64,000 bases of DNA from Pseudomonadota bacterium (GTDB lineage Bacteria; Myxococcota_A; UBA9042; GCA-2863065), in the NCBI GenBank assembly GCA_005776725.1, contig SXOO01000280.1:7425-71424 (forward strand). The letters run 5' to 3'. The notes beneath the pieces were generated by a model. That model had not been told where the DNA came from, made no database searches, and saw only the letters and a program-made list of their open reading frames with translations. Both the position numbers and the translations under genes were made by a program. Positions 3,867 through 40,500 of the stretch are shown here, piece by piece (the first letter of the stretch is position 1; the number at the start of each line of letters is the position of its first letter).

Positions 3867-4032
3867 CCTGCAGTACAACGCGCTCTTCACCCTGGCTGTG
3901 CCCGCCCCCCGAGAGTCATTGGGAAGCCCGGGCTCGACACCCTGTGCGCGCGTCAATAGCCTCCGCCCGGGTCTTGAAACGGACAGCCCAGGTCGGGCTC
4001 CGACACCCCACGGCCCAAGGTAGTACAAGCGC

Positions 4033-5604: not shown

Positions 5605-5829
5605 TCGGTCGCGCGGGCGGCCGCGGCCCCGCACCCGTCGCGGTCCGGCATTGGGGCGTTTCGCGCGCGGTGGAGGCCCAGGGGGGCCGAGGCGGTGCTC
5701 GTGGACGCGCAGGGTCGACGACACGCCAGCGGGGGCCTGACCGGGTGTACACCGGAGGCGACGAGGTGACACACTGCGCGAAGTCGTGGTTCGGTCCCCT
5801 TCGCCCGGGCGTCTCCCGGGTCTGACCTC

Positions 5830-12575: not shown

Positions 12576-12731
12576 GCCGGCGCCTTGAACCGAAGGTGCA
12601 GTCCGGCGGTGCCGTCGGGCCGATACGTAATTGCGCCCGGGGACTCACATTCTGCCAGCCCGGCCGCGCGCTGGGTTGACACGGCACGCAGCGCTCGGTG
12701 ACATGACCACCTGCATCGTCTCGAGGTACCC

Positions 12732-13700: not shown

Positions 13701-13837
13701 TCGCGAGGCGCTCGGTCGCCCGCTGCGCGACTGGGTCCCTCTTCACTGGCGTGTACGCCGGCACCTCGCCGCAGGAGAAATTGGGGTGGCGCCGTCCGAG
13801 TGACGCATCAGACCCTGTCGAGTTACCCTGCCGGCGC

Positions 13838-20721: not shown

Positions 20722-23700
20722 TCCTCGGACCCCGCGTCTTCTCGGGTGACGGTGGACCCGTCGGGCGCGCGAGCGACCCTGAGGCACGTGGGCATCTGGC
20801 GGTTGAGCTCGGCGATGTGGCTCACCACGCCCACGAGGCGGCCGGACTCCCCGAGCGACAGGAGCGCCTCCGCCACCGGCTCGAGGCGCTCGGGATCGAG
20901 GGTGCCGAAGCCCTCGTCCACGAACAGGGCCTCGAGCTGCACGCGGCCCTGGGCTCGCTGGATGTGCTCGGACAGCGCCAGCGCCAGGGCCAGCGAGGTG
21001 AGGAAGGTCTCGCCCCCAGACAGCGTCTCGATCGCGCGGGACTCGCCCGCGTGTTCGGCGTCGACCACGCGAAAGCGGTCGCCCTCGAAGCCCAGCGTGA
21101 GCCGGCCTGCCGTCCACGCGCTCAGGCGAACCGACGCTTCGACGACCAGCTCCTTGAACGTCTCCTCGAGCAGATAGGCCTGGAAGCGGTCGGTCTTCAG
21201 GTGGGTGGCGAGCGAGTTCCAGAGCCGCTGGCGACCGTCGGCCGCGGACAGCTGTTCCGCCACCTCCGCGCGCTCGGCGAGGCGCCGGACGAGCTGGGCG
21301 AGATCGGTCTCCAGTGTGACCAGCGCGCGAAGGCACTCCTCGGCACGGCGACCCGCCTCCGCCTCTGCCTCGCGGGCGGCCTCGAGGACGGGTGCCGGGA
21401 CGCGCTGGCCGCCGAGCAGCTCCAGCGCTCGCGCCCGGCGAGACAACCAGCTCATACGCGCCTCGCGGGCCTCGGTGACGCGTTGCTCCAGCGCCGCCGT
21501 GGCGCCGGGCTCGAGCCGCGCTCGTGCGACGCCCGCCCGATCGAGGCCCAGCCGCCCAAGCACCTCCGCGAGCGCCTGGACGGCGCGCGACGCCGCCTCC
21601 GCGTGCCGCGCGTGCTCCTCGTCGGCCATCGTGGTGGACGCCTCGGCGCGGGCGGCGTCGAGGCGCGCCGCGTCGAGAGTGGCGGCAGCCGCGGCCCGCG
21701 CAGCGTCGTCGGCCGCCACCTGCGCCTCCAGAGCCTCGAGGGCGCGCTCGGGGGAGGCGATGAGCTCGGGTTGAAGTCCCTCGACGACTTGCGGCGGGGC
21801 TCCCAGCACGGCCGCCTCGGGGTCTGGGGGTCGCTGCTCACTGGAGAGCGCCTCCAAGTTCCGTTGGCGCTGGTCCAGCCCGGCCAGCTCGGCGGCCAGC
21901 TCGGCCACGAGCCCCTGTTCGCGAGCCAGCGCGGCTGCGGCCCCCTCGTGTTCGCGCGCCGCGAGCTGCATCGCCTGCTTTGCCGCAGCTAGGGCCTGGC
22001 CCTGCCGCTCGGCCTCGCGGGCCTCGGTCGTGGCGCGCTCCGCGGCAGCGAGCACCTCCTCGGGTTCGGCGCCGAGCGTGGCGCGGGCCGCCTCGAGCGA
22101 GCGCTGGCGGTGATCTCGATCCGCCTGCACGCCGGCTAGGAGCTGCTCGGCCGCCTGGATCTGCGCCTCGGCCTGGTGCACGGCGCGCTCCATCGCCATG
22201 GCATCGGCCTCCGCCAGCGCGAGCCGCCGGCGCGCGGCGTCCAAGGCGGCCACGTCCACGTTCAGCGGCGGAGGCAGACCCAAGACCGTGGCCTCGCAGA
22301 CGGGACAAGGCGACCCGACCGCCAGGGTGGCCCGCAGCTTCGACGCGGGGAGCTGGTGCGCTGACGCCTCGAGGTGAGCCACCGTCTCAGCGAGTCCCCG
22401 CACGCTCGCCCCGGCGACCCCCAAAGCCCGACGGCGCTCGCCCACGGCCAGGTCCCGCGTGGCCAGCTCCGCGAGCTGCCGCTCGACGGCGCGGCGCGCC
22501 TCGGCCAGCAGGGGCCGCTCCGCGAGCAAGACCCGCGCCACGGGATCGAGGCGGGCGAGGCGATCCAGCGATTCCCGGTCCACGGTGCGCTGTGCCTTCT
22601 CGGCGGTGGCGACCGCCTCCGCGCACGCGTCGAGCCGGCGCTTGGCGCCCCGCTCGGCGGCCTCAGCGGCCTCGCAGCGCGGCAACGCGGCAGCCTGCCG
22701 CGCCGTGACGGCCTCGCGTTCGCGGCGTAGCCCGGCTACTGCGAGGAGGCGAGGGAGCGCGGCGCGCAGCGCGTCGCGCCGGGAGCGCAGCCCGAGATCG
22801 GGCCCGACGTTGGCGGCTTCTGCCGTGTGGAGGCGCTCCCGTGCGCGCCGGGAAACGACCCCGAGACCCGCGGCGCGCAGTCGGGATGCCTCGGCCACGG
22901 CTTCCGCCTCTGCCGCCGCGTCCAGGAGAGGCGCCGCCGGCGCGACACGACGGGCCTCGCTCAGACGCTCCTGGTCCGCCGCGAGCTGTGCCGCCTCGGC
23001 CTCCGACTCGGACAAGGCGGCGTCTGCCGCGTCGAGCTCCAGGGTGGCCTCGGCGAGCGCCGCCATCCGTGCCGTGAATGAGCGCGCCGCCGCCGCGGCC
23101 TCTCGCGCCTCGTCCACTGAGGCGCGGGCTTGCACGAGCTCCGCTTCGATGGCCTCCTTGGCGGCGGGCTCGACGCCGGCGAACTCGCGAGCCAGCCGCG
23201 CCTCGAACGCCGCGACCTCGAGCTTCGCCGACCCGTGCCGCGTGGACGCCTCGGCTCGCATCCGCTCGTAGACCTCGAGCCCGAGCAGCCCGGTGAGGAC
23301 CCTACGGCGCTCGGTGTGCTCACCGCGCAGGAAGCGGTCGAACTCGCCCTGCGGCAAGACGACCGCGCGACAAAACGCGCTGAAGTCGAGGCCAAGGAGG
23401 CGCACCACAGCGTCGTTCACCGGGCGCACGCCCTCGGCCAGGATCCGTGGGTCCTCTGGGTTGGTGATCCGCTCGAGCTGCGCCTCGGTGGGGCGCGTCC
23501 CGCGATAGATCCCCCGAGCCACCCGGTACCGCTCTCCGCGCAGCGCGAAGTCCAGCACCACCGAGAGCCGCTCCTGGCCTGTGGTGATGAGCTCCCTCAC
23601 GGCTTTGCCGGTGCGCGGCACCTCGCCGTAGAGCGCGAAGAGGAGCGCGTCGAGGATCGACGACTTGCCCGCACCCGTGGCGCCCCCGATGGAGAAGACC

Positions 23701-23777
23701 CCGAGATCGGCGAGGTCGATTCGCCGCGAGGTGGCGAATGACGTGAAGCCCTCGAGGGTCAGTGCCAGGGGTCGCAT
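20718..23777 (-). CDS. sbcC: SbcC/Rad50-family ATPase with coiled coil and zinc hook
   Basis: N-terminal Walker A (GGATGAGKSSILDA), a long Ala/Glu-rich coiled coil, a central CPVC hook, a C-terminal signature (LSGGETFLTSLALALAL) and D-loop/Walker B (LFVDEGFGTLD). Confidence 0.8.
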   Translation of the reverse strand: MRPLALTLEGFTSFATSRRIDLADLGVFSIGGATGAGKSSILDALLFALYGEVPRTGKAVRELITTGQERLSVVLDFALRGERYRVARGIYRGTRPTEAQLERITNPEDPRILAEGVRPVNDAVVRLLGLDFSAFCRAVVLPQGEFDRFLRGEHTERRRVLTGLLGLEVYERMRAEASTRHGSAKLEVAAFEARLAREFAGVEPAAKEAIEAELVQARASVDEAREAAAAARSFTARMAALAEATLELDAADAALSESEAEAAQLAADQERLSEARRVAPAAPLLDAAAEAEAVAEASRLRAAGLGVVSRRARERLHTAEAANVGPDLGLRSRRDALRAALPRLLAVAGLRREREAVTARQAAALPRCEAAEAAERGAKRRLDACAEAVATAEKAQRTVDRESLDRLARLDPVARVLLAERPLLAEARRAVERQLAELATRDLAVGERRRALGVAGASVRGLAETVAHLEASAHQLPASKLRATLAVGSPCPVCEATVLGLPPPLNVDVAALDAARRRLALAEADAMAMERAVHQAEAQIQAAEQLLAGVQADRDHRQRSLEAARATLGAEPEEVLAAAERATTEAREAERQGQALAAAKQAMQLAAREHEGAAAALAREQGLVAELAAELAGLDQRQRNLEALSSEQRPPDPEAAVLGAPPQVVEGLQPELIASPERALEALEAQVAADDAARAAAAATLDAARLDAARAEASTTMADEEHARHAEAASRAVQALAEVLGRLGLDRAGVARARLEPGATAALEQRVTEAREARMSWLSRRARALELLGGQRVPAPVLEAAREAEAEAGRRAEECLRALVTLETDLAQLVRRLAERAEVAEQLSAADGRQRLWNSLATHLKTDRFQAYLLEETFKELVVEASVRLSAWTAGRLTLGFEGDRFRVVDAEHAGESRAIETLSGGETFLTSLALALALSEHIQRAQGRVQLEALFVDEGFGTLDPERLEPVAEALLSLGESGRLVGVVSHIAELNRQMPTCLRVARAPDGSTVTREDAGSEE

Positions 23778-23855
23778 GGGCGGTCTAGTTGCACCCTGAG
23801 CGGTCCGACGTCAACGCGACGCGGGCGGCCGGCGCGTCGAAATCGCTGACGCGCC

Positions 23856-24725
23856 TTGCCGAGCTGGGGCCAAACGTGCGAGACGCGGGCCGTGGCCCCC
23901 CTTGACTACCATCGCCCGCCGCTCAAGTGGGCTGGCGGGAAGTTCGCCCTGCTCGGCCGGATCCTCCCGAAGCTTCCGCCGGGTCAGCGCTTGATCGAGC
24001 CGTTCCTGGGCTCGTGCGTGGTGGCGCTGAACGCTGGGCCTCGGCGCTTGTACCTGTCCGACTACAACGAGCGGCTCATCAACTTCTATCGCGTGGTCCG
24101 GGACTTACCGTCCGAGCTGCTCGAGGAGAGCGCCCCGCTCTTCCAGGCCTGCAACAACCGCGAGGCCTTCGAGGCGCTCCGCGCCGAGTTCAATGCGCGC
24201 CTCGCGCCCGGCAGCGTGCGCGACGCGGCGCTCTTCCTGTACCTGAACCGCCACGGCTTCAACGGCCTCTACCGCGTGAACTCGAAGGGCGTCTTCAACG
24301 TCCCCTTCGGGCGCTACGCCAGAACCCTGCACCCGCGGGAGGCCCTGGAGCGCCTGAGCGCGCGGCTCGCCGACGCCGAGCTCGGCTCGCGGGACTTCGA
24401 GCTCAGCCTCGCCGAGGCGGGTCCAGGCGACGTGGTGTACTGCGATCCGGCCTACGTCCCCCTGTCGGCCACGTCGTACTTCGCGTCTTACACGGATCGC
24501 TCGTTCGGCCTGGCGGATCAGGAGCGCCTGGCCTTCTTCGCCGAGCGCGCGGCGGAGCGCGGGGCCACGGTGGTCATCTCGAACCACGACACGCCGGTGA
24601 CGCGCCGGCTCTACGGCGCCGCCCAGATCGAGTCGTTCGCCGTGCGGCGGAGCATCAGCAGCGACACGCTCAATCGAGGCCACGCCGCCGAGCTCCTCGC
24701 GGTCTACGCGCCGCGAGGCGCCTAG
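23856..24725 (+). CDS. dam: Dam-family N6-adenine DNA methyltransferase (D12 class)
   Basis: LKWAGGKFAL, EPFLGSCVV, FNVPFGRYA and a DPAY catalytic motif. The true start may be the TTG at 23902. Confidence 0.7.
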   Translation: MPSWGQTCETRAVAPLDYHRPPLKWAGGKFALLGRILPKLPPGQRLIEPFLGSCVVALNAGPRRLYLSDYNERLINFYRVVRDLPSELLEESAPLFQACNNREAFEALRAEFNARLAPGSVRDAALFLYLNRHGFNGLYRVNSKGVFNVPFGRYARTLHPREALERLSARLADAELGSRDFELSLAEAGPGDVVYCDPAYVPLSATSYFASYTDRSFGLADQERLAFFAERAAERGATVVISNHDTPVTRRLYGAAQIESFAVRRSISSDTLNRGHAAELLAVYAPRGA

Positions 24726-25977: not shown

Positions 25978-28050
25978 GTGAGTCCTCGTTTCGCGCTTCT
26001 GCTCGTGCTCGCCGCCGCTTGTCGGTCTGGAGATCCCGCGCCCGCCGACGGGTGCGTGGCGGACAAGGACTGCAAAGGCGAGCGGATCTGCGTGCAGAAG
26101 GTGTGCGTCGACCCCACTCCAGCGGCCCCCGGCGCCGCAACAGCGCCCAGCGTGACCGCCCCGGCCGCCCCCAGCGCCGCACCGGCCACCCCCAGCGCCG
26201 CCCCAGCCGCTCCGCCAGTCCCTGACCGCCAGGCCGTCATCGCGTCGGCCCCCAGCCTCGGCGCCGCGGCGCCGGGCGTGCTCGTGATCTGGTTCGGGGA
26301 CCTCGAGTGCCCCCACTGCGCCCGCGCCACCCCGGTGGTCCGGAAGCTGATCGAGAAGCACGGCCGGCCAGACGGCACGGTGCGAGTCGAGTACCGGCAC
26401 AACCCGCTCGACCTCCACCCAGGCGCCCACCGGCTCGCCGTGGCCGCCGTGGCCGCGCACGTCCAGGGCCGCTTCTGGCAGCTCTTCGACAAGGTGGTCG
26501 AGGCGGGCGCGGGGCTCACCAACGATCGCCTCCAGGGCCTGGCCGACGGCGTCGGCATCGACGCGATCGCCTTCCACCGGGATCGGACCGCGCCGGAGGT
26601 GACCGCGCGGGTGGCGTCGGATCGGGCGCTCGCGCTCGCGCTGGGGGTCAAGGGGACGCCCGCGTTCTTCGTGAATGGGCGCCGCCTCGATGGCCAGGTC
26701 ACGTTCGAGGCCCTCGAGGCCCTCGTGAACGAGGAGCTCACTGCGCCGGTCGAGGGCGACCGCATCACCACGCGGACCCGCGCGAACAACGCGGAGCTGG
26801 CCGCTGTGCTCTTCGACGGCGCCACGCCCAAGCCCGCTCCGCCGCCGGCGCTCCCGCCGCCAGACGCCACGGTCTGGAAGGTCCCGGTGGACGCAGACGA
26901 CGCCTCGGAAGGACCCGCGGACGCCGCCGTCACGCTGGTGCTGTTCGGGGACCTCGAGTGCCCGTTCACCGCGCGGCTCTCGAAGACGCTGGAGTCGCTC
27001 CGTGAGCAGCGCCCCACCACCCGCCTCGTCTTCAAGCACCAGCCGCTGGCCGTGCACCCTCGCGCCGCTCGCGCCGCCCTCTATGGGGCGTGGGCAGCCA
27101 CGCACGGGCGCTTCTGGCCGTTCGCGCGCCACGTCCTCAGCGGCCAGCCCGCGCTGGCGGACGCCGATCTGGAGGCCGCGCTGCGGGCCGCCGAGGCGCC
27201 CGTCGAGGGGCTAGAGGCTGCCTTCGCCGGGCCGGCGCTGCGCGCTTCGATCGAGGCCGACCAGGCGCTGGCGGCACGGGTGGACGCGATCGGGACGCCG
27301 AACCTCTACGTGAACGGGCGACGACTCGTGGGCGCTCGTACCCTGGAGGAGCTGACGGCGCTGGTGGACGAGGAGGCCGCCAAGGCCGAGGCGCTGGCCA
27401 CCGCCGGGACCCCGCGGGCCGAGCTCTACGCCGCGATCATCGCCAAGGGTCAGGAGCGTCAGCCGTTGGGCGGGGCCGCGATCGACTTCGAGCTCACGGG
27501 CGCACCCCTTGGCGCCGCGGATGGCCCCGTGACCCTGGTGCTCTTCTCGGACTTCCAGTGCCCGTTCTCGAGCCGCCTCGTGCCGATCCTGGACCGCGCG
27601 ATCGCTCGGTTCCCGGGCAAGCTCAAGCTCTACTTCAAGCACTTCCCGCAGGACTTCCACACCGAGGCCCGAGCGGCCGCCGTGGAGGCGATCTGCGCCG
27701 CTGAGCAGGGCAAGTTCTGGGAGGTCTACCGGCAGTTCCTGGACGTGGAGCACCAGAAAGACCTGTCGGCGAAGGCGCGCGAGGGCCTCTTGAAGGCCGC
27801 GGGCGTGGACGTGGCCGCGGTGGGCAAGTGCGTGAACGAGAAGCGGGCCGACAAGGTGCTGGGCCGTGATCGCGAGGAGGCCGAGCGGGCCGAGGTGAAG
27901 GGCACGCCCACGCTCTTCATCAACGGGCGGCGCTTCACCTCCCCCACCGGGTACAACGACCGCTCCCTCGGGCGGGTGCTGGCCCAGGTGACGGGCCAGG
28001 CGCCAACCCCGGAGACCCCCAAGCCGGAGATCGCTCCCCCAGCGCCCTGA
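25978..28050 (+). CDS. lipoprotein with three tandem DsbA-like thioredoxin domains (active sites CPHC, CPFT, CPFS)
   Basis: Lipobox LAAAC with a Cys-rich N-terminal knot. Three repeats of ...V(L/T)LV(I/L)F(G/S)D(L/F)(E/Q)CP(H/F)(C/T/S)..., each with a downstream GTP(A/N/T)(F/L)(F/Y)(V/I)NGRR. Confidence 0.8.
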   Translation: MSPRFALLLVLAAACRSGDPAPADGCVADKDCKGERICVQKVCVDPTPAAPGAATAPSVTAPAAPSAAPATPSAAPAAPPVPDRQAVIASAPSLGAAAPGVLVIWFGDLECPHCARATPVVRKLIEKHGRPDGTVRVEYRHNPLDLHPGAHRLAVAAVAAHVQGRFWQLFDKVVEAGAGLTNDRLQGLADGVGIDAIAFHRDRTAPEVTARVASDRALALALGVKGTPAFFVNGRRLDGQVTFEALEALVNEELTAPVEGDRITTRTRANNAELAAVLFDGATPKPAPPPALPPPDATVWKVPVDADDASEGPADAAVTLVLFGDLECPFTARLSKTLESLREQRPTTRLVFKHQPLAVHPRAARAALYGAWAATHGRFWPFARHVLSGQPALADADLEAALRAAEAPVEGLEAAFAGPALRASIEADQALAARVDAIGTPNLYVNGRRLVGARTLEELTALVDEEAAKAEALATAGTPRAELYAAIIAKGQERQPLGGAAIDFELTGAPLGAADGPVTLVLFSDFQCPFSSRLVPILDRAIARFPGKLKLYFKHFPQDFHTEARAAAVEAICAAEQGKFWEVYRQFLDVEHQKDLSAKAREGLLKAAGVDVAAVGKCVNEKRADKVLGRDREEAERAEVKGTPTLFINGRRFTSPTGYNDRSLGRVLAQVTGQAPTPETPKPEIAPPAP

Positions 28051-28727
28051 TGTGGCAGTACTTCACCGAGACGCGCCGCCTCGGTGTGTCGCTGCTGATG
28101 GTCGCGCCGCTGCTCGTGGCGTACCAGGCAGGCCTCCTGATCGTCGGGGTCGAGGCGCTCAACGGCGCAGACTTCGTCACGCGTTACCTCCTCACCTTCG
28201 GGGGGCGCACCTTCCTGCTCCTCAACCTCGCGATCCTGTTCGCATTCGGCGTGGGCGTCGTGTGGCTGGACGGGAAGGGTCGCGGCACGGGCGATTACTT
28301 CATCCCCGTCTTCGTCGAGTCGCTCGCTTACGCGCTGGGCCTCGGCACCGTGGTCCTCCAAGTCATGGCGGAGGCGAGGCTCTTAGGCCCTGAGGCCGAC
28401 GGCACGCTCCTCTCGCGGCTAGTCCTCAGCGCCGGCGCCGGCATCCACGAAGAGCTGGTGTTCCGGCTGCTGCTCATGGGGGGCCTCATCGCGCTCGGGC
28501 GGCGGTTCGTAGACGCCCCCTTCGCGATCGGCGTCCTGGCGCTGGCGATCTCGAGCGTGCTCTTCTCACTCGCGCACTTCCGCGCAGAGCCCTTCGATAC
28601 CTTCGCGTTCTGGTTCCGCACTTTCGCCGGTGGGATCTTCGGCGTGCTGTACTGGGCTCGGGGCTTCGCCATCGCCGTCTACACGCACGCGTTCTACGAC
28701 GTCTTCGTCCTGGTGTTCCGACCGTAG
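28050..28727 (+). CDS. CPBP-family (CAAX/Abi) intramembrane metalloprotease
   Basis: ATG overlaps the upstream stop (TGATG). Multi-TM protein with the motifs HEELVFR, FSLAHF and HAFYD. Confidence 0.75.
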   Translation: MWQYFTETRRLGVSLLMVAPLLVAYQAGLLIVGVEALNGADFVTRYLLTFGGRTFLLLNLAILFAFGVGVVWLDGKGRGTGDYFIPVFVESLAYALGLGTVVLQVMAEARLLGPEADGTLLSRLVLSAGAGIHEELVFRLLLMGGLIALGRRFVDAPFAIGVLALAISSVLFSLAHFRAEPFDTFAFWFRTFAGGIFGVLYWARGFAIAVYTHAFYDVFVLVFRP

Positions 28728-28817
28728 GCAGGGGACCCCGCTCCACCCGCCTCACCGGGTTGCCGCGGACATCGCTCATCGTGGACGCGGGCAGCGAGTT
28801 CCAGGAGGATAGGGGGC

Positions 28818-30626
28818 ATGTGCGAACGGTACTCCCCTCTCCGACCTCTTCGTGTGCTCCGGCGCATCGCCCTCACGGCCTCGGTCGCCGCGGCCTGCTC
28901 CACGGAGGCCACCCCCGCCCCGGGCGCGAACGACGTCTCCGCGGCTGACACCGTCACTACCACGGACGGGACCATGGATTCGCCCGACGACGGCGTCGTA
29001 GGCGCCCATCCGGGCGACCCCATCGCCGCAGGCGCCCCGACGGTCGTGGGACGTGCGGTGGGGCTCGCCACGCTCACCCAGGCCTCTGGAGCGCTGTACA
29101 CGAGTCGCGAGCGCGAGATCGTCCGACTGGCGGCCGCTGGCCCAGAGCTCGTCGCCACGCTCGACGCGCCCGCGCTCGCCCTGACGGCGCAGGGCGACAC
29201 GCTGTACGCGGTCGACTCGGCCGGCGCCTGGTATCGGGTGCCGCTGGCGGGCGAGCCGCAGAAGCTCGAGGCCGGCCTCGTGGTCCAACGCCTTGCAGTC
29301 GACGGGGACCGCCTTGTTGCGGCCCTCGGCGCCGCGGGCGTGGCCGTGGCGCCCCTCGACCTCTCCATCGCGCCAGTCACGGTCTCGGCGCTGGGCGCCG
29401 TGCGCGCGGTGCTGCCGCTCGAGGACGGGCTCCGCGTGCTCGCCCGAGGGCAGGACGGCTTCGCGCTGGTGAAGGGCAGCTGGCCGGACGCGGTCGTTGT
29501 GTCGGAGGTGCCCACCAAGCTCCCCGCGTCGGCTGTGGCACGCGGCGCCGACGGGCTCGTCGTGGGCCTCGAGGCCGGCGGCTCGCTCCACACCCTGGTC
29601 TTCGAGGGCGAGACCCTGACCAGCGTGGGACTCACCCCCTACCCAGGCCCGGGGCTCGCGCTGGCTATCGCGGGCTCGCTGGCCGTGACGGCGGACTGGG
29701 ACCGCGTGGTGCTCTACGACGTCAGCAATACCGCCGCGCCGCGCCGCCTGGCGAGTGAGCACTTCGGGCAGCGGCGGGCGTTCGACCTCGTGGCCTTGGA
29801 CGCCACGCACGTGAGCGTGAGGGGCGCGGCCGAGGTGACCGAGCTCGCGCTCGACGCCACGGCCGTGGCACCCGAGCTGGCGCTGACGCCCCAGCGCATC
29901 CAGGTGGAGGCCACTGCCGATTTCGACGGCGGGTCGGCCGGCGTGCTCTTCCGCAACAAGGGCGCCCTGCCCCTGGAGGTGCGCGGGCTCACGGTGGATC
30001 ATCCGCGCCTCTCGCTGGACCTCGACACCTCCGCCGCGCTCTCGGTGGCGGCGGACGACGTCGCCTTCCTCGAGCTCAAGGTCACCGGCGCCGAGCCCCT
30101 GGAGGGCACCCTCAGCTTCAGCACCAATGAGCCGGGCGAGCCCAGCTACTCCCTCCCCGTCACGGTCAACCCGAAGCGGCTCAGCGTGGGCGACGTGGCC
30201 ACGCCCTTCTCCATGCCGGGCACGGACGGTGAGCTCGTCAGCCTGGGCGACCTCATGGGGCGCGTGATCCACGTAAAGCTGTTCAACGCCTACTGAACGA
30301 GCTGTCTCGAGGAGTTGCCTCGAGTCGAACAGCACATCCACCAGGCCCTTCTCGGAACCGCCTACACGCCGCTGGCCGTCCACGTCGGTGACGACGTCCC
30401 CAACGCGGTGGGCTCGAAGCGCAGCACGAAGATCACCTTCCCGATGCTGATCGACTACGACAACGCCGTGGTCGACGCCTACAACCGGATCGGCGAGCAG
30501 CTCACGCTGTTCCCGCTGGCCTACCTCATCGATAAGAAGGGCATCGTCCGGCACATCTACAAAGAGACCGAGCCGGAGCTCACGGCCCTGCGCGCGGACA
30601 TCGACGCGCTGCTCGCGGAGGAGTAG
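28818..30626 (+). CDS. putative selenoprotein: lipoprotein with a C-terminal TlpA/redoxin-like thioredoxin fold whose catalytic UxxC motif (U-T-S-C) is encoded with an in-frame TGA at 30294-30296
   Basis: The frame is the same on both sides of the TGA (the ORF-track pieces 28818-30296 and 30315-30626). The sequence ...VSLGDLMGRVIHVKLFNAY-U-TSCLEELP...FPMLIDYDNAVVDAYNRIGEQLTLFPLAYLIDKKGIVRHI aligns without gaps to the redoxin motif VVLLNFWATW-C-PPCRAEMP...PVLLD...PTTFLID. Confidence 0.6.
30303..30327 (+). promoter_or_regulatory. candidate bacterial SECIS hairpin immediately 3' of the in-frame UGA
   Basis: Perfect 6-bp stem CTCGAG/CTCGAG (30306-30311 / 30319-30324) with a 7-nt loop GAGUUGC containing GUU, plus a G-C and a G-U pair below a T-T mismatch. 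It starts about 10 nt after the UGA. Confidence 0.4.
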
Positions 30627-30637
30627 AACCCGCGCCC

Positions 30638-31816
30638 GTGTCGCCCGCTACCCTGCGAATCCGCACGCTCTACTTCGTCCTCTTCATGTTCCTCGGCGGG
30701 CAGGGCAACTACCTGCCGCTCTGGCTCGAGGCCCATGATTGGTCCGACGTCGACGTGGGTTGGCTGGGCGCCGCGCGCTCGGCGTGCCTCATCGTCACGC
30801 CGCTCTTCTGGGGACGGCTCGCCGACCGCGACGGCCACCCCGGTCGCGTCCTCGCGCTCACGGCCGTTGGCAGCCTCCTCGGCTTCCTCCCTCATCTCCT
30901 CACCACCGACTTCGCGCTGCTCATGGCCTCGACGATCGTGTTCCATGGGTTCCGGGAGGGGATCCTGCCCGCCACGGACACCGCCACGCTGCAGCTGGTG
31001 ACCCGTGAGGGGGGCACCTTCGGACGCCACCGGATCTACGGGTCGCTCGGCTTCATCGCGGGGGGCTTCCTCCTCTCGGGGATCCTGGCGCTGAGCAGCC
31101 GTGAAGCGACTCCTGCCGTGCTCACGGCGCTGCTCGCAGTCACCGTCTGGGTGGTCCTCCGGCACGTGCGGGCCGAGCGCCCCGACGCAACGGCCAGCGT
31201 GTCCGCGAACCCTGGCCTCCGCGCCGCGCTCCGCCACATCATGGCGCCGGCGGTCCTGCGGCTGTTCCTCGTGATCTTCCTGTGGCGCGTAGCGATGAGC
31301 GGGTTCTTCCAGTTCCTACCGCTGCACTTGAATCGCCTCGGGGTGCCCGATAGCGCCGTGTCTGCGTACTGGGCGGTGGGGGTGATCGCCGAGATCCTGC
31401 TCTTCGCCAAGGCGGTCCCGTGGTTCGGTCGGTTCGAGGCGAGGCACGTTCTGAACGCCTGCCTGGCGCTCTGTGCCATCCAGTGCGGCCTGTTTGCCGC
31501 GACCTCCTCGCCGTGGCTCTTCCTGGCGCTGATGTCGCTGCACGGCTTCACGTTCGGCATCGCCTTCTTCACGGTGGTGGTGTGGCTGTCGGCGCTGGTC
31601 CCCAAGACCGCCCTCGCCACCGTCCAGGCCGTGCTCTACGCGTTCGGCTTCGGGCTCGGGGGTGCCGTGTCGTCCGTGGCGGCAGGATACCTCTACGAGC
31701 ACTCCCAGGGCGCCGGCCTCTTCGGAGCGGCCGCAGCCGTCGCGCTGGCCAGCACGGTGCTGGGCGTGGTGATCCTTCGGGACTCGACCCGCTTCGGAGA
31801 CGCGGCTACTCGCTGA
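30638..31816 (+). CDS. MFS transporter
   Basis: About 12 predicted TM helices with MFS-like loop motifs (GRLADRDGHPGR). Confidence 0.7.
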   Translation: MSPATLRIRTLYFVLFMFLGGQGNYLPLWLEAHDWSDVDVGWLGAARSACLIVTPLFWGRLADRDGHPGRVLALTAVGSLLGFLPHLLTTDFALLMASTIVFHGFREGILPATDTATLQLVTREGGTFGRHRIYGSLGFIAGGFLLSGILALSSREATPAVLTALLAVTVWVVLRHVRAERPDATASVSANPGLRAALRHIMAPAVLRLFLVIFLWRVAMSGFFQFLPLHLNRLGVPDSAVSAYWAVGVIAEILLFAKAVPWFGRFEARHVLNACLALCAIQCGLFAATSSPWLFLALMSLHGFTFGIAFFTVVVWLSALVPKTALATVQAVLYAFGFGLGGAVSSVAAGYLYEHSQGAGLFGAAAAVALASTVLGVVILRDSTRFGDAATR

Positions 31817-33285: not shown

Positions 33286-33626
33286 CTCTCTACTCCGATC
33301 CGTTCAAGTCGGGCTAGGGCCGCAGCACCGGGGGTCTCTGTGGCGAATCCAGCGCCCGCACACCCCCCGATTCCCCACTCGCTGGCCGCGAGTTCGTGGT
33401 GCCGAGGTGTTGGGCGCCGACGTTAGGCGGCTGTCTCGAGGTGTCAACCTCGTTGCCCTCGAAGGGCACACCGGAAGGCTCACCCGCCAAGACACCGGGA
33501 CACCGCGCGGCCGATTCGGTTGACCTTGGGGAGCTACACTGCGATCCTGCGGCACATCGCCCACCGTCGGCCCAGAGAGCGGCCCCGACTTCGGCGCGAC
33601 GAGACCTCGCGAGGAGCGCGTCCAGC

Positions 33627-34547
33627 GTGAAGCACATCCGGTCCTGCCTCGTCCTCTGGCTGATCCTCGGTCCGTTGGCGGCTGCCGCGGCGCCACCAGC
33701 GGAAGGCAACGTCAACCTCGTGAACTTCTCGCCGGCCGGCGGCCGGTACCGCCTGTTCGCGGTCGAGTCCGCGGACGTCGGCCCCGCCTGGCAACCCTAC
33801 GGACACGTCCTGTTCCACGGCGCGCGGGACGTCCTTCAGCTCAGCGCTGGCGACCACACCGAGACGGTGGTCAAGGAGCAATATCTCGCCGACGTGAACG
33901 TTGGCGTGGGGCTCTTCGGCTTCCTGTCGCTAGACCTCACCCTGCCGCTGGGCCTGGCGATGAGCTCCGGCGACGGCGCCACCTCGCTCGCCGGGGTCTC
34001 TGGCGCCGGCCTCGGGGATATGGTCGTCCGCATCAAGGGCACCCCGCTCGCCACCGGGACAGCGGGCTTCGGCGTCGGCTTGGAGCTCGCGGCCACCGTC
34101 CCCACCGGCGACGGCGACCGCTTCCGGGGAGACCCTGGCGCAGGCCTCATCGCGGCGGCGATCCTCGATCACGCGTGGTCGATCGCGCGCCTCTCGCTCA
34201 ACCTCGGCGTCCGGATTCGGTTCGAGGAGAGCTCCTACCTCAGCGCCACGTTCGGGAACGAGCTCACCTTCGGCCTCGGCGTCCTGGTCGAGCTCTTCGA
34301 CCGCCGCCTCGGCCTCGCCTTCGAGCTCCAGGGTCGCACGCCGCTCACCGCGGAGGCCTTCGACAACACCAACACCACAGCCGTCGAGATCATGCTCGGG
34401 CCGCGCTGGTGGATCATCGATTCACTGGCCTTCGAGCTCGGGCTCGGCGCCGGGTTGGTCCAGGGCCTCGGAGCGCCCACGTTCCGCTTCAACACGGGCT
34501 TCGTCTGGGCGCCAGCGGCCCTCGCAGCGCCGACGGGAACACCATGA
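33627..34547 (+). CDS. secreted beta-rich (putative outer-membrane barrel-like) protein, homologous to the penultimate domain of the two downstream giant proteins
   Basis: GTG with SD gaggag. Signal peptide, alternating Gly/hydrophobic pattern, C-terminal ...[11 protein letters not shown]. Colinear with giant1 (about 41091-41930) and giant2 (about 49186-49990), sharing [31 protein letters not shown] and GAGLVQG. Confidence 0.65.
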
Positions 34548-37500
34548 CGAGAGTCCTCTTCACCAGCCTCCTACTGGCCGCGCCCTTCGCGCGCGCCGCG
34601 GAAGATTGCGCGAACGGCATCGATGACGACGCCGCCGGCGGCGCGGACTGCGCGGATCCGGCCTGCGCGGCCGACCCGTTCTGCTCGCCCTGCAACGTCG
34701 ACCTCACGTTCGACACCGGCCAGGGTCCGGTCACCGTGCCCACGGCGGTCTTCACCTGGGCCCAGGCCACCGGCGACGGGCTCATCGCCTCGGGCGGGCT
34801 CGCGGGCCTCACCCCATCGGCGGTGTCCGACGTGTTCACGGTGCCGGTCGCGGTGCCAGCGGCGGGCGAAGCGCCCAGCCCGCGCGTGGAGGTGGTGTTC
34901 TCGCTGAAGAGCAAGGCGTCCGCCGAGGACACGCACCAGGACACCTTCACGGTCTGCGTCGGCGTGCCGTGTACGAAGGACACCCCCAACCCGCTCTACC
35001 GCACGAGCCGCGACACCACTCCAGGCCTGGCCCCTTTCGGCGTGCCCAGCCCGCCATCGTTCAATGACGGTGTTTTCGACCACGTCTTCCTCGACCTCAC
35101 GGCCCACGCTGGGTCCACCGTGACGCTCGCGTTCGCCATCGACGCGCCCGCAGGGGGCTCCGCCGGGCGAAAGGGTCTCCGCGTGTCACGCCTGATCGTC
35201 GGGTCGGACGTTGACGTAGACGGCGCCTTCGAGGGCGTCGCGGGCAGCTGCGACCGCTGCTGGGACGCCGACAAGGACACCTACGTCGACGCCGCGGGCC
35301 CGGCCACCGCGGCCGAGTGCACCGCCCCCGACCTGGACTGCGACGACACCAACGCCGCCGTGAACCCCGCCGCCGCAGAGCAGTGTGGCGTGGTGGGAGA
35401 CGACGACTGCGACGGCGTCGCCGACGCGCTCGACTCGGACTGCGGCGTGGAGGACTGCGCCAACGGGGCAGACGACAACGGCGACGGTCAGGTCGACTGT
35501 GCGGACGTCACCTGCGGGTCGGACGCCGCGTGCGCCCCATGCGGCACTGTCCTCAATCTCAACCGCGGCGGCGCGGCCTTCGTGGCCGCCGACGACAACC
35601 CCGACGCCAACGCCGCGACACGCCTCTTCACCCACGGGCCGAACCCCTCGCTCCCCACCGAGATCGGCTGGTGGACCGCCCGCACGGGCACGGTGAGCAC
35701 ACACTCGGGCGTGAAGCCGGTGCATGCCACGCTCACCCGCAGCTTCGATGTCTCGTCCGGCTCGCTCAGCCCCAGCCTGCGCGTGTCGTACCGCCTCCGC
35801 GGCGAGGCCGCGGCCGGCAAGGACGTGTTCGGCGTGTGCTTCAACACGCCCGCGACGGAGTGTCGGGCCGACGCCCCGGCGAGCGCCCTGGCCTTCTCGA
35901 CGCACGTCGACACCGCAGCCACCGGCACCACGAACATCGACGTGCCCCTGCCGGCGAACAGCGCGGGCAAGACGGTGTCGGTGACGCTGTTCTACGACAC
36001 GGTCGACGGCGCCAATAACGCGAACGCCGGCCTCTTCATCGACGCCGTGAACGTGGCCAGCGACGCCGACGCGGACGGCGCGTCCGAAGACTCGGTCACG
36101 CAAGGGTGCGACCGCTGCGTGGACCAGGACCTGGACACGTTCGGCCGTGAGGGGATCCCCGGCGTCTATGTGTCTGAGTGCGCGTCCAACAAGCGCGACT
36201 GCGCGGACACCATCGCCACGGCCTTCCCGGGAGCTACCGAGCTCTGCGACGGGACCATCGACCACGACTGCGACGGCAAGGCAGACGCGGACGACAGCGA
36301 CTGCACCACCTGCGGAGACGGCGTCGCCAGCGCCTCAGAAGAGTGCGACGACGGCGCCAAGATCTCGGGCGACGGCTGCAGCGCCAGCTGCGAGCTCGAG
36401 GCGAACGCGCTCGTCCTGAGCGAGCTCCACTTCACGAAGCTCTCCCCCACCGCCTTCGGGGAGCAGTTCGTCGAGCTCCAGAGCCGCACCCTCGCCAAGA
36501 TCCACCTCGGCGGGCTCGCCGCGGGCCTGCGTCGCAGCACCGGCCAGGAGCTCCGCTTCGCGGATTGCGCCGCCGCGAGCCTCGTCCTCGCCGGCAACGG
36601 GCGCGTTGTCGTGAGCCTCGGTACCGCGGGGACCTCCGACGGCCTCAACGCGGCGATCCGTTGCGACGAGGACTTTCAGCTCGACCCGACCGGCGACGTA
36701 GTCACCTTGCTATCTGGCGCAGACACGCTCGACACGGCCGACGCGCGCCCCTTCGCGTGCGAGCTGTCCGAGGCCGCCGCCGCGGGGCGCGGGCGGTCGC
36801 TGGAGCGCCTGAACCCGGCCAGCAACCCGAACGACGCGGCGTCTTGGTGCCTCGCGTCCACGGCGACGAGCTACGCCACCTCGGGCAAGCACCACGGCTC
36901 GCCCGGGTCCGCGGGCGCCTGTGCGGAGCGCGCCTGTGACGGCGTGGACGACGACTGCGACGGCGCCACGGACGAGCTCCTTCCCGATACCGACGCGGAT
37001 GGGACCTGTAACGACCGCGACTGCGCGCCGCTGGTACCTTCTTGCGCGCTGGACTGCGCCACGGACGTGGACGGGGACTCCACGCCCGACTGCCGCGACG
37101 GCTGCATCGACTCGGACGGCGATGGCTGGGGCGTGGCCGGAGGCCTCCCGAGCTCCACCTGCAAGACGCTCGCGGGCGTAGCGAAGAGCGACTGCGAAGA
37201 TGATCTGGCGTTCGCCAACCCCGCGGCGTCGGAGGGACCCAGCGCCGCCTCCTGCCTCGATGGCGTGGACGACGACTGCGACGGCACGCCCGACTGCACG
37301 GACCCGAGCTGCGCCGGCACCGCCGCGTGCTCCGGTGAGGCGTGCGGCCTGCCGCTCACCCTCACCTGCGGCCAGGTCCGAGTGATCGAGCCGGAGGGCA
37401 ACGACTTCCCCTGTGGGCCCGGTGCGGACGCGGTACTCCGCTTCGTCGCGCCGCGCACCGAGCTGGTTCGCCTCGACGTGAAGAGCGGCGGCAGCCAGCA

Positions 37501-40500
37501 GTACGCCGGCCGGATCTTCGACGTCGCGTGCTCGAATCAGGCCTGCGCGCCGGGGATCGCAGACGCCGAGTCGTCCTGCCAGGAGCCCGGAACCGCCACC
37601 TTCTCGGCCGTGGCCGCCAAGGCGTACACGATCGTCGTGGACCAGCTGGCCAGCTGCTCCGCGTCGGGCGCCGCGCCGGTCGAGATCAAGCTGACCTGCG
37701 CCGAGCACTGCACCGGCGGGGTCGACGACGACGGCGACCTCTTGGCCGACTGCGCCGACAGCGACTGCGTGAGCCAGGCGGTGTGCGCAGGACAGGACTT
37801 CGACGGCGACGGCATCGCCAATGGTCTCGAGCTCACGTGTGGCGCCAGCCCCACCTCGCCGTTCCAGTCGCCCTCCCCCGCCGACGTTCAGAACCCGGAC
37901 AACGACAGCCAGCTCTCGTGCGTGGACGCGGACGACGACAACGACGCCGCCTCTGACGTCGTGGAGGCCGCTCAGTGCGCCGCCGGTGCCTCCGTGGACG
38001 CCAGCGTGTACCCCGGCGCCCCGCGCCAGTGCGGCAACGCGGGCGTAGACGCGAACTGCAATGGCATCGTCGACTCCGCGGAGGCCGAGTGCGGCGCGGT
38101 CGAGTCGCAGTGCGCCGACGCCAAGGACAACGACAGCGACGGCGCCAAGGACTGCGCCGACCCCGACTGCATCCCCTCGCTCGCCTGCGCCGCCCTGGAC
38201 TTCGACGGTGACCTGATCGCGAACACCATCGAGCTCGCGTGTGGGACCAACCCGCTCGACAAGAACCTGAAGCCCACGGCCACCGGCGCCGCCGATGGGG
38301 ACGGCGACACGGTCCCGAGCTGCGCCGACGCGGACGACGATGGCGACGGCTGGGACGACGTGGTCGAGTTCTCGTGCGCGTCGAACCCCGTGAACGCGTC
38401 CTCGACGCCGGTCGACACGGACGGTGACACCCAGTGTGACGCCGTGGACCCGGACGACGACGCGGACGGCTTCGCGGACCTCATCGAGGTGCAGTGCGGC
38501 TCCAGCCCCACGCTGGCGACCGAGACGCCCATCGACGCGGTCCGTGACCTCGACCTCGACGGCGTTTGCAACGCTCGTGACGTGGACCTCGACGGCGACG
38601 ACTGGACCAACGGCGTCGAGGAGGCCTGCGGCACCGACGTCGCCGACGCCAACGACAACCCTGAGGCCGCCGGTCTCGACGGTGACGACGACGGGCTCTG
38701 CGACGCGCTCGATGGGGACGACGACGGTGACACCTGGTCCGATGAGAAGGAGGAGCTCTGCCAGAGCGATCCGCTCTCCCCGGACTCCGTGCCGGCCGAC
38801 GTCGACGGCGACAGCATCTGTGACGCCTACGACGTGGACGCAGACGACGATGGCTGGCCCGACACGCTCGAGGTGCTGTGCGGCACCAACCCGCTGCTGG
38901 CCGCGAAGAACCCCAGCGCCGAAGGCCAGGACGAAGATGCCGACAAGCTCTGCGACAGCCTCGACGCCGACGACGACGGCGACGGTTGGTCCGACGAGGC
39001 CGAGGCGGTTTGTGAGTCCGACCCGAGAGACCCCAACGCGCTGCCGGCGGACCTGGACGACGACCACGTGTGCGACCTCCGCGACGACGACGACGACGGG
39101 GACGAAGCGATGGATGCCAGCGAGCTGATCTGCGGCACGGATCCGGCGGATGCCACCTCGAAGCCGATCGACACCGACGGAGACGGCGTGTGCGATCCGG
39201 TGGACACCGACGCCGACGAGGACCTGGACGGCTGGAGCAACGGAGACGAGCTGGCGTGCGGAACCGACCCGAAGGTGCCGGCCGACAAGCCGCTGGACAC
39301 GGACGCGGACAAGGTCTGTGACGTGCTCGACGACGACGACGACAACGACGGCTGGAGCGACCTGTCGGAGCTGCTGTGCGGCACCTCCGCCACCAACGGG
39401 GCCGTGGAGCCCGTGGACACCGACGGGGACGCCACGTGCGACGCCATCGACACGGACGACGACGGCGACGGCGCCTCCGACGCAGATGAGGCGCTCTGCC
39501 TCACGGATCCGAAAGACCCCACGGTGCTCCCCTTCGAGCCCGATCTCGCGGACACGGACGGCGACCAGATCGCCGACTGCGTCGATCCCGACGACGACGA
39601 GGACGGCATCCCGGACGTGGTCGAGCTCGGCGATACGAAGCTCGCGGACACCGACACGGACGGCCTGGACGACGGGACGGAGGACGCCAACAAGAACGGC
39701 GTCGTGGACACGGGCGAGACCGACCCCACGAAGGGCGACACCGACGGAGACGGACTGATCGACGGTGAGGAGGTTGCGAGCTGCTACGGCGAGGCCTGCA
39801 CGAAGACCTCCCCGACGTCGCGCGACAGCGACTCGGACGGCCTGTCAGACGCGGAGGAAGACGCCGACAGCGACGGGAGCGTGGGCGAAGGCGAGACGGA
39901 TCCGACCGTGTTGGACACAGACGGCGACACCTCGAGCGACGGGGTCGAGGTCGGCTGCGCGACCGACCCGCTCGACGCGACCAGCTTCCCGGTGGACAAA
40001 GACCAGTCCGGCACCTGCGATGGCGCCGAGGCCGACAGCGACGGCGACGGGATCGCGGATGGCGTGGAGACGCGCTGCAAGACGCTCCCGGGCAGCGCTG
40101 CCAGCGTGCCGCCGCTCACCGAGCTAGACGACAAAGACGGCGACGGTGAGCTCGACTGCTACGACACCGACGACGACGACGACGGCGCGATCGACGCGGC
40201 CGAGGCCCAGTGCGGCACGTCCACGAAGGACGCGGGCGCGGTGCCGTCACCCGCGGATCTCGAGGACACCGATGACGATGGCCAGCTCGACTGCGCCGAC
40301 GACGATGACGACGCGGACGGACTCGACACGAACACAGAAAAGATCTGGGGGACCGACGCGCTCGATGGTGACACGGACGACGACGGGCTCTCTGATGGCG
40401 CAGAGGTCACCATCCACGGCACCGACCCGACAAAGCTCGACACCGATGGCGACGGCGTGGCCGACGGCGTGGAGCTCGGGGTCACCGAGCCCGTCTTCGG

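What the first reader, a model, noticed from the sequence alone, without database searches (positions are those of the whole stretch)
30303..30327. SECIS-like hairpin starts about 10 nt after the UGA
A perfect palindromic 6-bp stem (CTCGAG) encloses a 7-nt loop GAGUUGC containing GUU, extended by G-C and G-U pairs below a U-U mismatch. The position and size match what SelB-dependent recoding elements need.
Basis: seen in the sequence. Interest (0 to 1): 0.6.

Follow-up and report, generated by a model that had tools for sequence, protein, structure and literature searches.

The report
Selenocysteine insertion hairpin in redoxin gene
The hairpin is real and is very probably the RNA signal that makes the ribosome insert selenocysteine at an in-frame UGA in the active site of an exported thiol-disulfide oxidoreductase; this is a correct call, but of an already well-known kind of element.

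Summary
The hairpin exists as described. It has a 7-bp stem (30306-30312/30318-30324), a 5-nt loop AGUUG, a U·U mismatch, then G304-C326 and U303·G327. It lies 16 nt after the UGA at 30294-30296. That UGA interrupts one 602-codon reading frame (28818-30626) inside an AhpC-TSA/Redoxin domain. It sits at the first Cys of the CxxC motif, giving U-T-S-C.

Alone, the hairpin is weak evidence. About 6% of all TGA triplets in this 71% GC window are followed by an equally good SECIS-like hairpin. Comparison settles it:
- All 13 other distinct homologous loci keep the in-frame TGA.
- They keep the helix (94% of cells paired), and 5 of its 7 pairs show compensatory changes.
- The loop GUU is invariant.
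- Synonymous codon identity is 82% (53% expected) over the ten codons after the UGA; elsewhere it matches expectation.
- The helix depends on rare codons (CCU, UUG, CGA).

All structural criteria of the published bacterial SECIS model are met. Cys-form homologues exist. Roughly 125 of the 150 listed cluster representatives matching the N-terminal part end exactly before the Sec position.

Not shown: SelB binding, or sel genes in this genome (none in the window).

Verdict: interpretation supported. This is a new member of a known kind, of modest interest.

The parts
28818..30626 (+). Complete selenoprotein gene: a 602-codon frame read through the UGA, with the true stop TAG at 30624-30626. Public gene calls split it into a 492-aa ORF and a 103-aa ORF.
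   Evidence: The translation shows a single frame with one internal TGA. The split calls appear. GC3 is 0.89 before the TGA and 0.92 after it.
29010..29852 (+). N-terminal beta-propeller domain (about aa 65-345). It follows a probable lipoprotein signal peptide (aa 1-27, Cys27).
   Evidence: The AlphaFold2 model has pLDDT 85 and pTM 0.80 and is all-beta. Foldseek hits are WD40-like and other propeller folds. The signal peptide and lipobox are inferred from the sequence only.
29865..30167 (+). Ig-like beta-sandwich domain (about aa 350-450).
   Evidence: Secondary structure of the model. No Pfam match was found.
30186..30557 (+). TlpA/ResA-like redoxin domain (aa 457-580) that spans the UGA.
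   Evidence: Pfam AhpC-TSA, E = 4e-12, profile positions 1-124 of 124; Redoxin, E = 6e-10. NCBIfam ResA/TlpA matches fall below the curated cut-offs. PDB matches: ResA and 3kcm.
30294..30296 (+). In-frame UGA, the proposed selenocysteine codon (residue 493, motif U-T-S-C).
   Evidence: It aligns with the first Cys of the CxxC motif in ResA and 3kcm. It is conserved as TGA in all 14 distinct loci. It is Cys in 14 homologue clusters.
30303..30327 (+). Conserved SECIS hairpin: U303·G327, G304-C326, U305·U325 mismatch, 7-bp helix, 5-nt loop.
30306..30312 (+). 5' arm of the 7-bp helix (CUCGAGG).
   Evidence: It pairs with 30318-30324. Compensatory changes occur in 5 of the 7 pairs.
30313..30317 (+). 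Apical loop AGUUG. G314, U315 and U316 are invariant in the 14 loci.
   Evidence: The Leu codon here is always UUG or UUA and the Phe codon always UUU, although these make up 8%, 1% and 6% of their amino acid's codons elsewhere in the same genes.
30318..30324 (+). 3' arm of the helix (CCUCGAG). It is built from the rare codons CCU (Pro) and CGA (Arg).
   Evidence: CCU is used in 12 of 13 loci, against 3% of Pro codons elsewhere in the same genes.
30329..30333 (+). 3' half of the extra lower stem (with 30301-30305) seen only in the MFE fold of the window. Probably not part of the functional element.
   Evidence: Only 52.5% of cells are paired across homologues.

Best explanation
The hairpin at 30303-30327 is a bacterial selenocysteine insertion sequence (SECIS).

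Proposed mechanism: when a ribosome reaches the UGA at 30294-30296, the hairpin's apical part lies just outside the mRNA entry channel. That part is a 7-bp helix topped by a loop carrying an exposed G-U. It is bound by the C-terminal winged-helix domains of the elongation factor SelB, which carries Sec-tRNA(Sec). SelB delivers the tRNA to the A site, so the UGA is read as selenocysteine and translation runs on to the TAG at 30624.

The product is a 602-residue, probably lipid-anchored, extracytoplasmic protein: beta-propeller, Ig-like domain, then a TlpA/ResA-like redoxin domain. Its active site is U-T-S-C, with Sec in place of the nucleophilic Cys.

Shown here:
- the anatomy of the hairpin;
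- the single reading frame across the UGA;
- the position of the UGA in the domain;
- conservation of the UGA;
- covariation in the helix;
- RNA-level selection on codon choice;
- the existence of Cys-form homologues.

Inferred: SelB binding, Sec rather than another amino acid at the UGA, and export of the protein.
For: (1) One frame crosses the UGA. A full-length AhpC-TSA/Redoxin domain spans it. The UGA aligns with the first Cys of the CxxC motif of ResA and 3kcm.

(2) All 14 distinct homologous loci have TGA at this codon, and the downstream frame is conserved and open. They include a Myxococcales MAG and go down to about 35% protein identity.

(3) Helix conservation: 93.7% of cells are paired. 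Five pairs carry compensatory changes (for example C-G, G-C and U-A at 30306:30324; C-G, A-U, G-C and G·U at 30308:30322). No measure was reached in 0 of 500 shuffles. Slid controls gave at most 54%. RNAalifold independently returns the same structure.

(4) Synonymous codon identity is 82% observed against 53% expected in codons +1 to +10. It is 57% against 56% downstream and 58% against 55% upstream.

(5) The helix and loop use rare codons: CCU 6%, UUG 4.7% and CGA 8.7% in this window. Given each protein sequence, random synonymous codon choice reproduces the observed pairing in only 0.1-4.6% of trials, for each of nine divergent sequences.

(6) The published bSECIS model (PMC13188914) asks for a loop of 3-9 nt, a stem of 4-16 bp, a G followed by G or U within the first loop positions, a spacing of 16-37 nt, and dG of -7.5 or lower. 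All are met: 5 nt, 7 bp, A-G-U, 16 nt, -10.3 kcal/mol.

(7) The G-U of the loop lies at nt 21-22 counted from the U of the UGA. In E. coli fdhF it lies at nt 23-24.

(8) TGA is an ordinary stop codon for Pfam-supported genes in the window, so the recoding is specific to this site.

(9) Cys-form (CxxC) homologues with the same architecture exist: 14 clusters. About 125 of the 150 listed representatives end exactly before the Sec position.

(10) UxxC Prx-like, TlpA-like and redoxin selenoproteins are established predicted families (PMC1088965, PMC1794560, PMC13188914).
Against: - No selA, selB, selD or tRNA-Sec gene lies in the 64-kb window or in the fetched loci. Sec-decoding capacity of this organism is therefore assumed, not shown.
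- No Rfam family matched.
- The hairpin overlaps the codons of a protein motif that is itself conserved (x-E-E-[L/F]-P, also present in ResA/TlpA). Part of the nucleotide conservation is therefore due to the protein.
- The UGA-to-loop spacing of 16 nt sits at the lower limit of the published range.
- SECIS-like hairpins are common by chance in this GC-rich DNA (5.9% of TGA triplets).
- The 14 sequences are related by descent, so cell counts overstate the number of independent events.
Confidence: 0.9

Rival explanations
1. The hairpin is a by-product of coding. The codons of the conserved active-site helix (C-x-E-E-L/F-P-R) happen to be self-complementary, and the UGA is decoded or terminated without help from the RNA.
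For: The E-E-[L/F]-P motif is conserved in Cys-containing ResA, TlpA and 3kcm as well, so protein constraint does explain part of the nucleotide conservation. SECIS-like hairpins follow 5.9% of TGA triplets by chance.
Against: Given the amino-acid sequences, random synonymous codon choice yields the helix in only about 1% of trials, in each of nine divergent homologues. The element relies on codons that are rare in these same genes: CCU 3%, UUG 8%, UUU 6%, CGA 10%. Where amino acids change (L to V, I or A; R to L, V or S), the partner base changes too. The excess of synonymous identity is confined to codons +1 to +10.
Confidence: 0.03
2. The UGA is a genuine stop. Either the gene is a pseudogene, or these are two separate genes and the hairpin is a terminator or a translational-coupling structure before a TTG start at 30315.
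For: Every public gene call splits the locus into 492-aa and 103-aa ORFs. TGA is a normal stop codon in this genome.
Against: The split falls in the middle of one thioredoxin-fold domain, exactly at its catalytic Cys. Neither half could fold alone. The same break is kept in 14 loci and about 125 cluster representatives, while the downstream frame remains open and conserved. No U-tract follows the hairpin. The 'start' codon lies inside the hairpin loop and in some orthologues is not a start codon at all (UUU in L001, L012 and L013).
Confidence: 0.02
3. This is site-specific UGA recoding, but not to selenocysteine. The hairpin would stimulate read-through by a near-cognate tRNA or a suppressor tRNA, inserting Trp, Cys, Gly or Arg.
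For: The sequence alone cannot identify the inserted amino acid, and no Sec machinery was found in the window.
Against: The recoded position is the nucleophilic Cys of a CxxC motif and alternates with Cys in homologues, which is the classical Sec/Cys signature. Trp, Gly or Arg there would inactivate the enzyme. The geometry and the loop G-U match the SelB-type consensus. Myxococcales relatives such as Anaeromyxobacter are documented Sec users (PMC1794560).
Confidence: 0.04

Closest known systems
Bacterial SECIS elements (consensus model of Zhang & Gladyshev's bSECISearch, as summarised in PMC13188914; prototype E. coli fdhF)
   Same: It lies inside the coding region directly after an in-frame UGA. 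It has a small apical loop with a G-U, a 7-bp upper stem, 16 nt between the UGA and the loop, and a stable fold. The G-U is only 2 nt closer to the UGA than G23-U24 of fdhF.
   Different: There is no sequence similarity to fdhF. There is no bulged U in the 5' arm; instead a Y·U mismatch lies below the helix. The loop is A-G-U-U-G/U/A rather than G-G-U-C. The spacing is at the lower limit of the model. The long lower stem typical of fdhF is not conserved here.
[quoted passage not shown]
   Same: It has a thioredoxin-fold AhpC-TSA/Redoxin domain with Sec at the first position of UxxC, and Cys-form homologues exist. These families are common in the former Deltaproteobacteria.
   Different: Here the redoxin domain is the C-terminal module of a 600-residue protein, behind a probable lipoprotein signal, a beta-propeller and an Ig-like domain. 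I found no description of this architecture as a selenoprotein in the papers read. It was not compared directly with the reference sequences of those families.
ResA / TlpA / CcmG extracytoplasmic thiol-disulfide oxidoreductases (Cys enzymes; PDB 1st9, 1jfu, 3kcm)
   Same: These are the best matches among solved structures, at E = 1e-10 to 1e-2. The CxxC-x-E-E/K-F/I-P active-site helix aligns residue for residue.
   Different: Scores are far below the NCBIfam cut-offs for ResA and TlpA (45 against 170 bits; 24.5 against 230), so this is not an orthologue. It has Sec instead of Cys, and the tryptophan before the active site is replaced (F-N-A-Y-U rather than F-W-x-x-W-C).

Membership tests
Bacterial SECIS (bSECIS consensus model) | Stem-loop inside the ORF, immediately 3' of an in-frame UGA that continues the reading frame | tested here: met
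   The frame is open from 28818 to 30626 with a single TGA.
Bacterial SECIS (bSECIS consensus model) | Apical loop of 3-9 nt on an upper stem of 4-16 bp | tested here: met
   5-nt loop and 7-bp stem. The helix is conserved in 14 loci.
Bacterial SECIS (bSECIS consensus model) | G in one of the first two loop positions, followed by G or U | tested here: met
   The loop is A-G-U-U-G. G-U-U is invariant in 14 of 14 loci.
Bacterial SECIS (bSECIS consensus model) | 16-37 nt between the UGA and the apical loop | tested here: met
   16 nt (30297-30312), identical in all 14 loci in an ungapped alignment. This is the lower limit of the range.
Bacterial SECIS (bSECIS consensus model) | Minimum free energy of -7.5 kcal/mol or lower | tested here: met
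   -10.3 kcal/mol for the 19-nt hairpin and -17.5 for the 42-nt stretch.
Bacterial SECIS (bSECIS consensus model) | Bound by SelB and required for Sec insertion | not testable with these tools
   This needs a binding assay, a reporter or 75Se labelling.
Bacterial SECIS (bSECIS consensus model) | Host genome encodes selA, selB, selC (tRNA-Sec) and selD | tested here: inconclusive
   None were found in the 64-kb window or in 8 related loci. The rest of the genome is not available.
Bacterial SECIS (bSECIS consensus model) | Match to a curated RNA family model | tested here: inconclusive
   Rfam gave no match even at E up to 10. Bacterial SECIS elements are too diverse in sequence for this to count against the call (PMC12013277).
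UxxC Prx-like / TlpA-like redoxin selenoproteins | Thioredoxin-fold AhpC-TSA/Redoxin domain that spans the UGA | tested here: met
   PF00578 at 46.6 bits (cut-off 26) with full profile coverage; PF08534 at 39.5 bits.
UxxC Prx-like / TlpA-like redoxin selenoproteins | UGA aligned with the redox-active Cys (a Sec/Cys pair with homologues) | tested here: met
   It aligns with the first Cys of the CxxC motif of ResA and 3kcm. Fourteen homologue clusters with the same architecture carry CxxC there.
UxxC Prx-like / TlpA-like redoxin selenoproteins | UGA and the downstream frame conserved in orthologues | tested here: met
   14 distinct loci. About 125 of 150 representatives end just before the Sec position.
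ResA / TlpA orthologues | Score above the curated equivalog or subfamily cut-off | tested here: not met
   ResA 45 bits against 170; TlpA 24.5 bits against 230. It is related in fold and motif but is not a member.

The most novel reading that the evidence does not exclude
The gene represents a large, so far undescribed architecture of selenoprotein: exported lipoproteins made of a beta-propeller, an Ig-like domain and a UxxC redoxin domain. At least 179 clusters at 50% identity match the N-terminal part, and more than 80% of the 150 listed use Sec rather than Cys. They share a family-specific SECIS written into the codons of the active-site helix. Every member fetched or listed here appears split or truncated in public gene calls. 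This would be one of the most Sec-biased redoxin families, acting outside the cytoplasm, mostly in uncultured Myxococcota-like bacteria.
Probability: 0.35. Interest if true: 0.45.

Novelty: new member of a known kind. Interest (0 to 1): 0.33.

Why it matters
It corrects an annotation. Two adjacent 'hypothetical' ORFs of 492 and 103 aa are in fact one 602-residue selenoenzyme, and the same error recurs in every homologous record fetched or listed here. It adds a well-supported SECIS variant, backed by covariation, from a GC-rich lineage in which SECIS-like hairpins are frequent by chance and predictions are unreliable. It also shows that Sec-containing redoxin domains occur as modules of large exported multi-domain proteins. 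It does not change the understanding of the recoding mechanism.

Tried and rejected
- Rfam scans of the region (E up to 10) and of the whole window found nothing.
- The genome-contig scan with exact peptides from the window found no relative. The source genome is not among the species representatives.
- The full-length protein search was swamped by low-complexity candidates and gave only 2 hits. Searching with the C-terminal part and then with a profile worked.
The N-terminal 492 aa were used instead.
- A covariance model of the element (R1) found no second copy in the window. Its best other hit, 20448-20489(-) at 19.6 bits, lies inside a helicase-like ORF with the TGA out of frame, and I take it to be chance.
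- The extended lower stem of the MFE fold (30301-05/30329-33) was rejected as part of the element because it is not conserved.
- A second candidate for an in-frame TGA, at 62520-62522, proved to be an ordinary TGA-ATG gene junction followed by a lipoprotein signal peptide.
- Other 7-bp-or-longer SECIS-like hairpins after TGA triplets (66 sites) are not associated with in-frame continuations.
- The raised synonymous identity in codons -10 to -1 (76% against 67% expected) is mostly codon bias and was not pursued.

Full report
**Observation**

The window sequence shows TGA at 30294-30296, followed by ACGAGCUGU-CUCGAGG-AGUUG-CCUCGAG-UCGAACAGC. The palindromic hexamer CUCGAG (30306-11) pairs with its second copy (30319-24). 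G312-C318 adds a seventh pair, leaving the loop AGUUG (30313-17).

RNAfold gives -10.3 kcal/mol for the 19-nt hairpin (z = -3.7, 0 of 200 shuffles as good) and -17.5 for the 42-nt stretch (z = -2.8).

In the window's own MFE fold, the extension below the helix is a different 5-bp lower stem (30301-05/30329-33) with a 4-nt bulge.

**Is the hairpin more than chance?**

The window is 70.8% G+C. I scanned all 1117 TGA triplets on both strands for hairpins obeying the published bacterial SECIS model. Of these, 47% have a compliant stem of 4 bp or more, and 5.9% (66 sites) have one of 7 bp or more. The hairpin alone proves nothing. This agrees with the literature remark that predicted SECIS-like structures increase with GC content (PMC12013277).

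**Context**

The ORF 28818-30296 ends at this TGA. The frame then continues without a further stop to TAG at 30624-30626, giving 602 codons. GC3 is 0.89 before the TGA and 0.92 after it.

With Cys substituted at the TGA, Pfam finds one AhpC-TSA domain covering profile positions 1-124 of 124 at residues 457-580, and a Redoxin domain. The TGA at codon 493 therefore lies inside the domain.

Against solved structures, the best matches are a Geobacter thioredoxin-family protein (3kcm) and B. subtilis ResA. The alignments place the TGA on the first Cys of their CxxC motif, and the following E-E-L-P on their E-E-I-P and K-E-F-P. The active site therefore reads F-N-A-Y-U-T-S-C-L-E-E-L-P.

TGA is otherwise a normal stop codon in the window. 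It terminates the Pfam-supported FGE-sulfatase, ADH, DsbA, MFS, PFK and TonB genes.

**Homologues**

Database gene calls always split the locus, into a 492-aa piece (P0001) and a 103-aa piece (P0003) that starts at a TTG inside the hairpin loop.

I fetched the contigs behind the more distant pieces, and two DNA-pattern scans added more. Together these gave 13 further distinct loci. One comes from a Myxococcales MAG (L012). One is a paralogue with a TPR-like N-terminus (L010).

Every one has TGA at the same codon, as [FL]-F-[NS]-x-x-U-x-[ST]-C, and the downstream frame is conserved and open. One low-coverage contig (L009) breaks off early.

**Structure conservation**

The 14 sequences align without gaps from the TGA onward. 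The alignment is thus anchored by the codons and not fitted to any structure.

- RNAalifold returns G304-C326 plus the 7-bp helix.
- Five of the seven helix pairs change on both sides while staying paired. Examples are 30306:30324 as C-G, G-C or U-A; 30308:30322 as C-G, A-U, G-C or G·U; and 30309:30321 as G-C or C-G.
- None of 500 column shuffles reaches any of the five measures.
- Sliding the 3' partner by 1-3 columns gives at most 54% pairing.
- The alternative lower stem of the window's MFE fold is paired in only 52.5% of cells across the first eight sequences.
- Loop nucleotides G314, U315 and U316 are invariant.

Caveat: the sequences are related by descent, so cell counts are not independent events.

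**Separating RNA constraint from protein constraint**

The hairpin is written in the codons of a conserved protein motif, so I tested codon choice.

- In the window, the element uses TGT (12% of Cys codons), TTG (4.7% of Leu), CCT (6% of Pro), CGA (8.7% of Arg) and GAA (11% of Glu).
- Across 13 loci, the Pro codon is CCU in 12 and CCA in one; the CCA pairs as required. CCU makes up 3% of Pro codons elsewhere in the same genes.
- Leu in the loop is always UUG or UUA. Phe there is always UUU, which is 6% of Phe codons elsewhere.
- Among sequence pairs with the same amino acid, codon identity is 82% in codons +1 to +10, against 53% expected from the family's own codon usage.
- Elsewhere, observed and expected identity agree: 57% against 56% downstream, and 58% against 55% upstream.
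- I resampled synonymous codons for each of nine divergent sequences. This reproduces the observed pairing in 0.1-4.6% of trials, and pairing together with the loop G-U in 0.015-1.2%.

**Comparison with the known element**

The consensus bacterial SECIS model asks for five things: a 3-9 nt loop, a 4-16 bp upper stem, a G followed by G or U within the first loop positions, 16-37 nt between UGA and loop, and an MFE of -7.5 kcal/mol or lower (PMC13188914). Here the values are 5 nt, 7 bp, A-G-U, 16 nt and -10.3 kcal/mol.

The E. coli fdhF element was recalled from memory and then confirmed in 5419 of 5426 E. coli genomes. It places its loop G-U at nt 23-24 from the U of the UGA. Here the G-U is at nt 21-22.

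It is established knowledge, not tested here, that SelB recognises the exposed G-U of the loop.

**The protein and its family**

AlphaFold2, run on an alignment of 26 homologues, models residues 65-345 as a beta-propeller and residues 350-450 as an Ig-like sandwich (pLDDT 85, pTM 0.80). The N-terminus looks like a lipoprotein signal peptide; this is an inference.

An exhaustive HMMER search with the 492-aa N-terminal part finds 179 cluster representatives. Among the 150 listed, 106 fit a strict pattern of ending directly before the Sec position, for example ...KLFNAY or ...YFATF/W. About 20 more do so with variant residues. Fourteen continue with CxxC and a full redoxin domain.

The profile search with the C-terminal part finds only fragments of about 100 aa down to 35% identity before any full Cys-type domain appears.

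The family therefore has the Sec/Cys alternation expected of selenoproteins, and it is predominantly in the Sec form.

UxxC Prx-like, thiol-disulfide-isomerase-like, TlpA-family and redoxin selenoproteins are already listed as predicted families (PMC1088965; PMC1794560; PMC13188914). Anaeromyxobacter, a member of the Myxococcales, is a documented Sec user.

**What is not shown**

No tRNA-Sec gene was found in the window or in eight related loci. No selA, selB or selD gene was found among the window's ORFs. Rfam has no match. A covariance model of the element finds no second copy in the window. SelB binding, the identity of residue 493 and export of the protein are all inferred.

**Verdict**

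The element is a new member of a known kind, embedded in a multi-domain selenoprotein that public annotation splits in two. Interest is modest.

Noticed in passing
window 25978-28727: Directly upstream lie a 690-aa protein with three DsbA/Thioredoxin_4 domains and a Rce1-like CPBP membrane protease whose start overlaps the preceding stop. An MFS transporter (30638-31816) follows the selenoprotein gene. The order Rce1-like, selenoprotein, MFS is kept in the near-identical contigs, and the MFS neighbour is also kept in the 50%-identical locus L001. This may be an envelope redox gene cluster.
   Followed up: partly
window 30315 (TTG) and loci L002-L009, L014-L021: In all but one of the fetched loci (L021), the gene caller started the post-UGA fragment at a TTG/CTG-type codon inside or next to the hairpin loop, 18-24 nt after the TGA. 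This gives a recurrent pair of ORFs, about 490-500 aa and about 100 aa. The pattern is a simple signature for finding more members of the family.
   Followed up: yes
L010 (Ga0315273_10093721), minus strand around 2327: This is a paralogous selenoprotein with a different, helical TPR-like N-terminal region and the active site W-Y-P-G-U-G-S-C. It carries the same type of hairpin (GUGGAGG-AGUUU-CCUCUGC), so this SECIS type is not restricted to the beta-propeller architecture.
   Followed up: partly
window 33524-42760 and 42673-50823: Two consecutive giant ORFs of about 3078 and 2716 codons (stop to stop). Both have C-terminal OmpA domains plus MopE-like metal-binding repeats, and the first also has TSP3 repeats. 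Both are otherwise unannotated.
   Followed up: no
window 28776-30554 (-) and other long antisense ORFs: A 592-aa ORF runs antisense to the selenoprotein gene. It does not pass the GC3/GC2 coding-signature filter and is the usual high-GC artefact. Several similar shadow ORFs occur across the window, for example 13397-19102 (+).
   Followed up: partly
window 20448-20489 (-): This is the only other hit of the SECIS covariance model (19.6 bits, E about 0.008). It lies inside a 722-aa ORF (...PTRALVNDLRRRLE...) with the TGA out of frame, and I judge it to be chance.
   Followed up: yes
window 62520-62525: Two high-GC3 ORFs in the same frame are separated by a single TGA. The TGA is followed at once by ATG and a lipoprotein signal peptide (MVPRLRIALVAVLALAC), so this is an ordinary gene junction and not a second selenoprotein.
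   Followed up: yes
window 4024-6954, 12702-13700, 20718-24725: Other annotated content: a CotH-kinase-like protein, a multi-haem cytochrome c, an FGE-sulfatase-type enzyme, an SbcC/Rad50-like ATPase and a Dam-type N6-adenine methyltransferase. Together with 71% G+C and the Myxococcales title of L012, this suggests a myxobacterium-like source.
   Followed up: no
L009 950-1216: In this orthologue the frame after the UGA stops early (87 codons, ...KIRHI*). The contig has 1.8x coverage, so this is probably an assembly or sequencing error rather than a real truncation.
   Followed up: no
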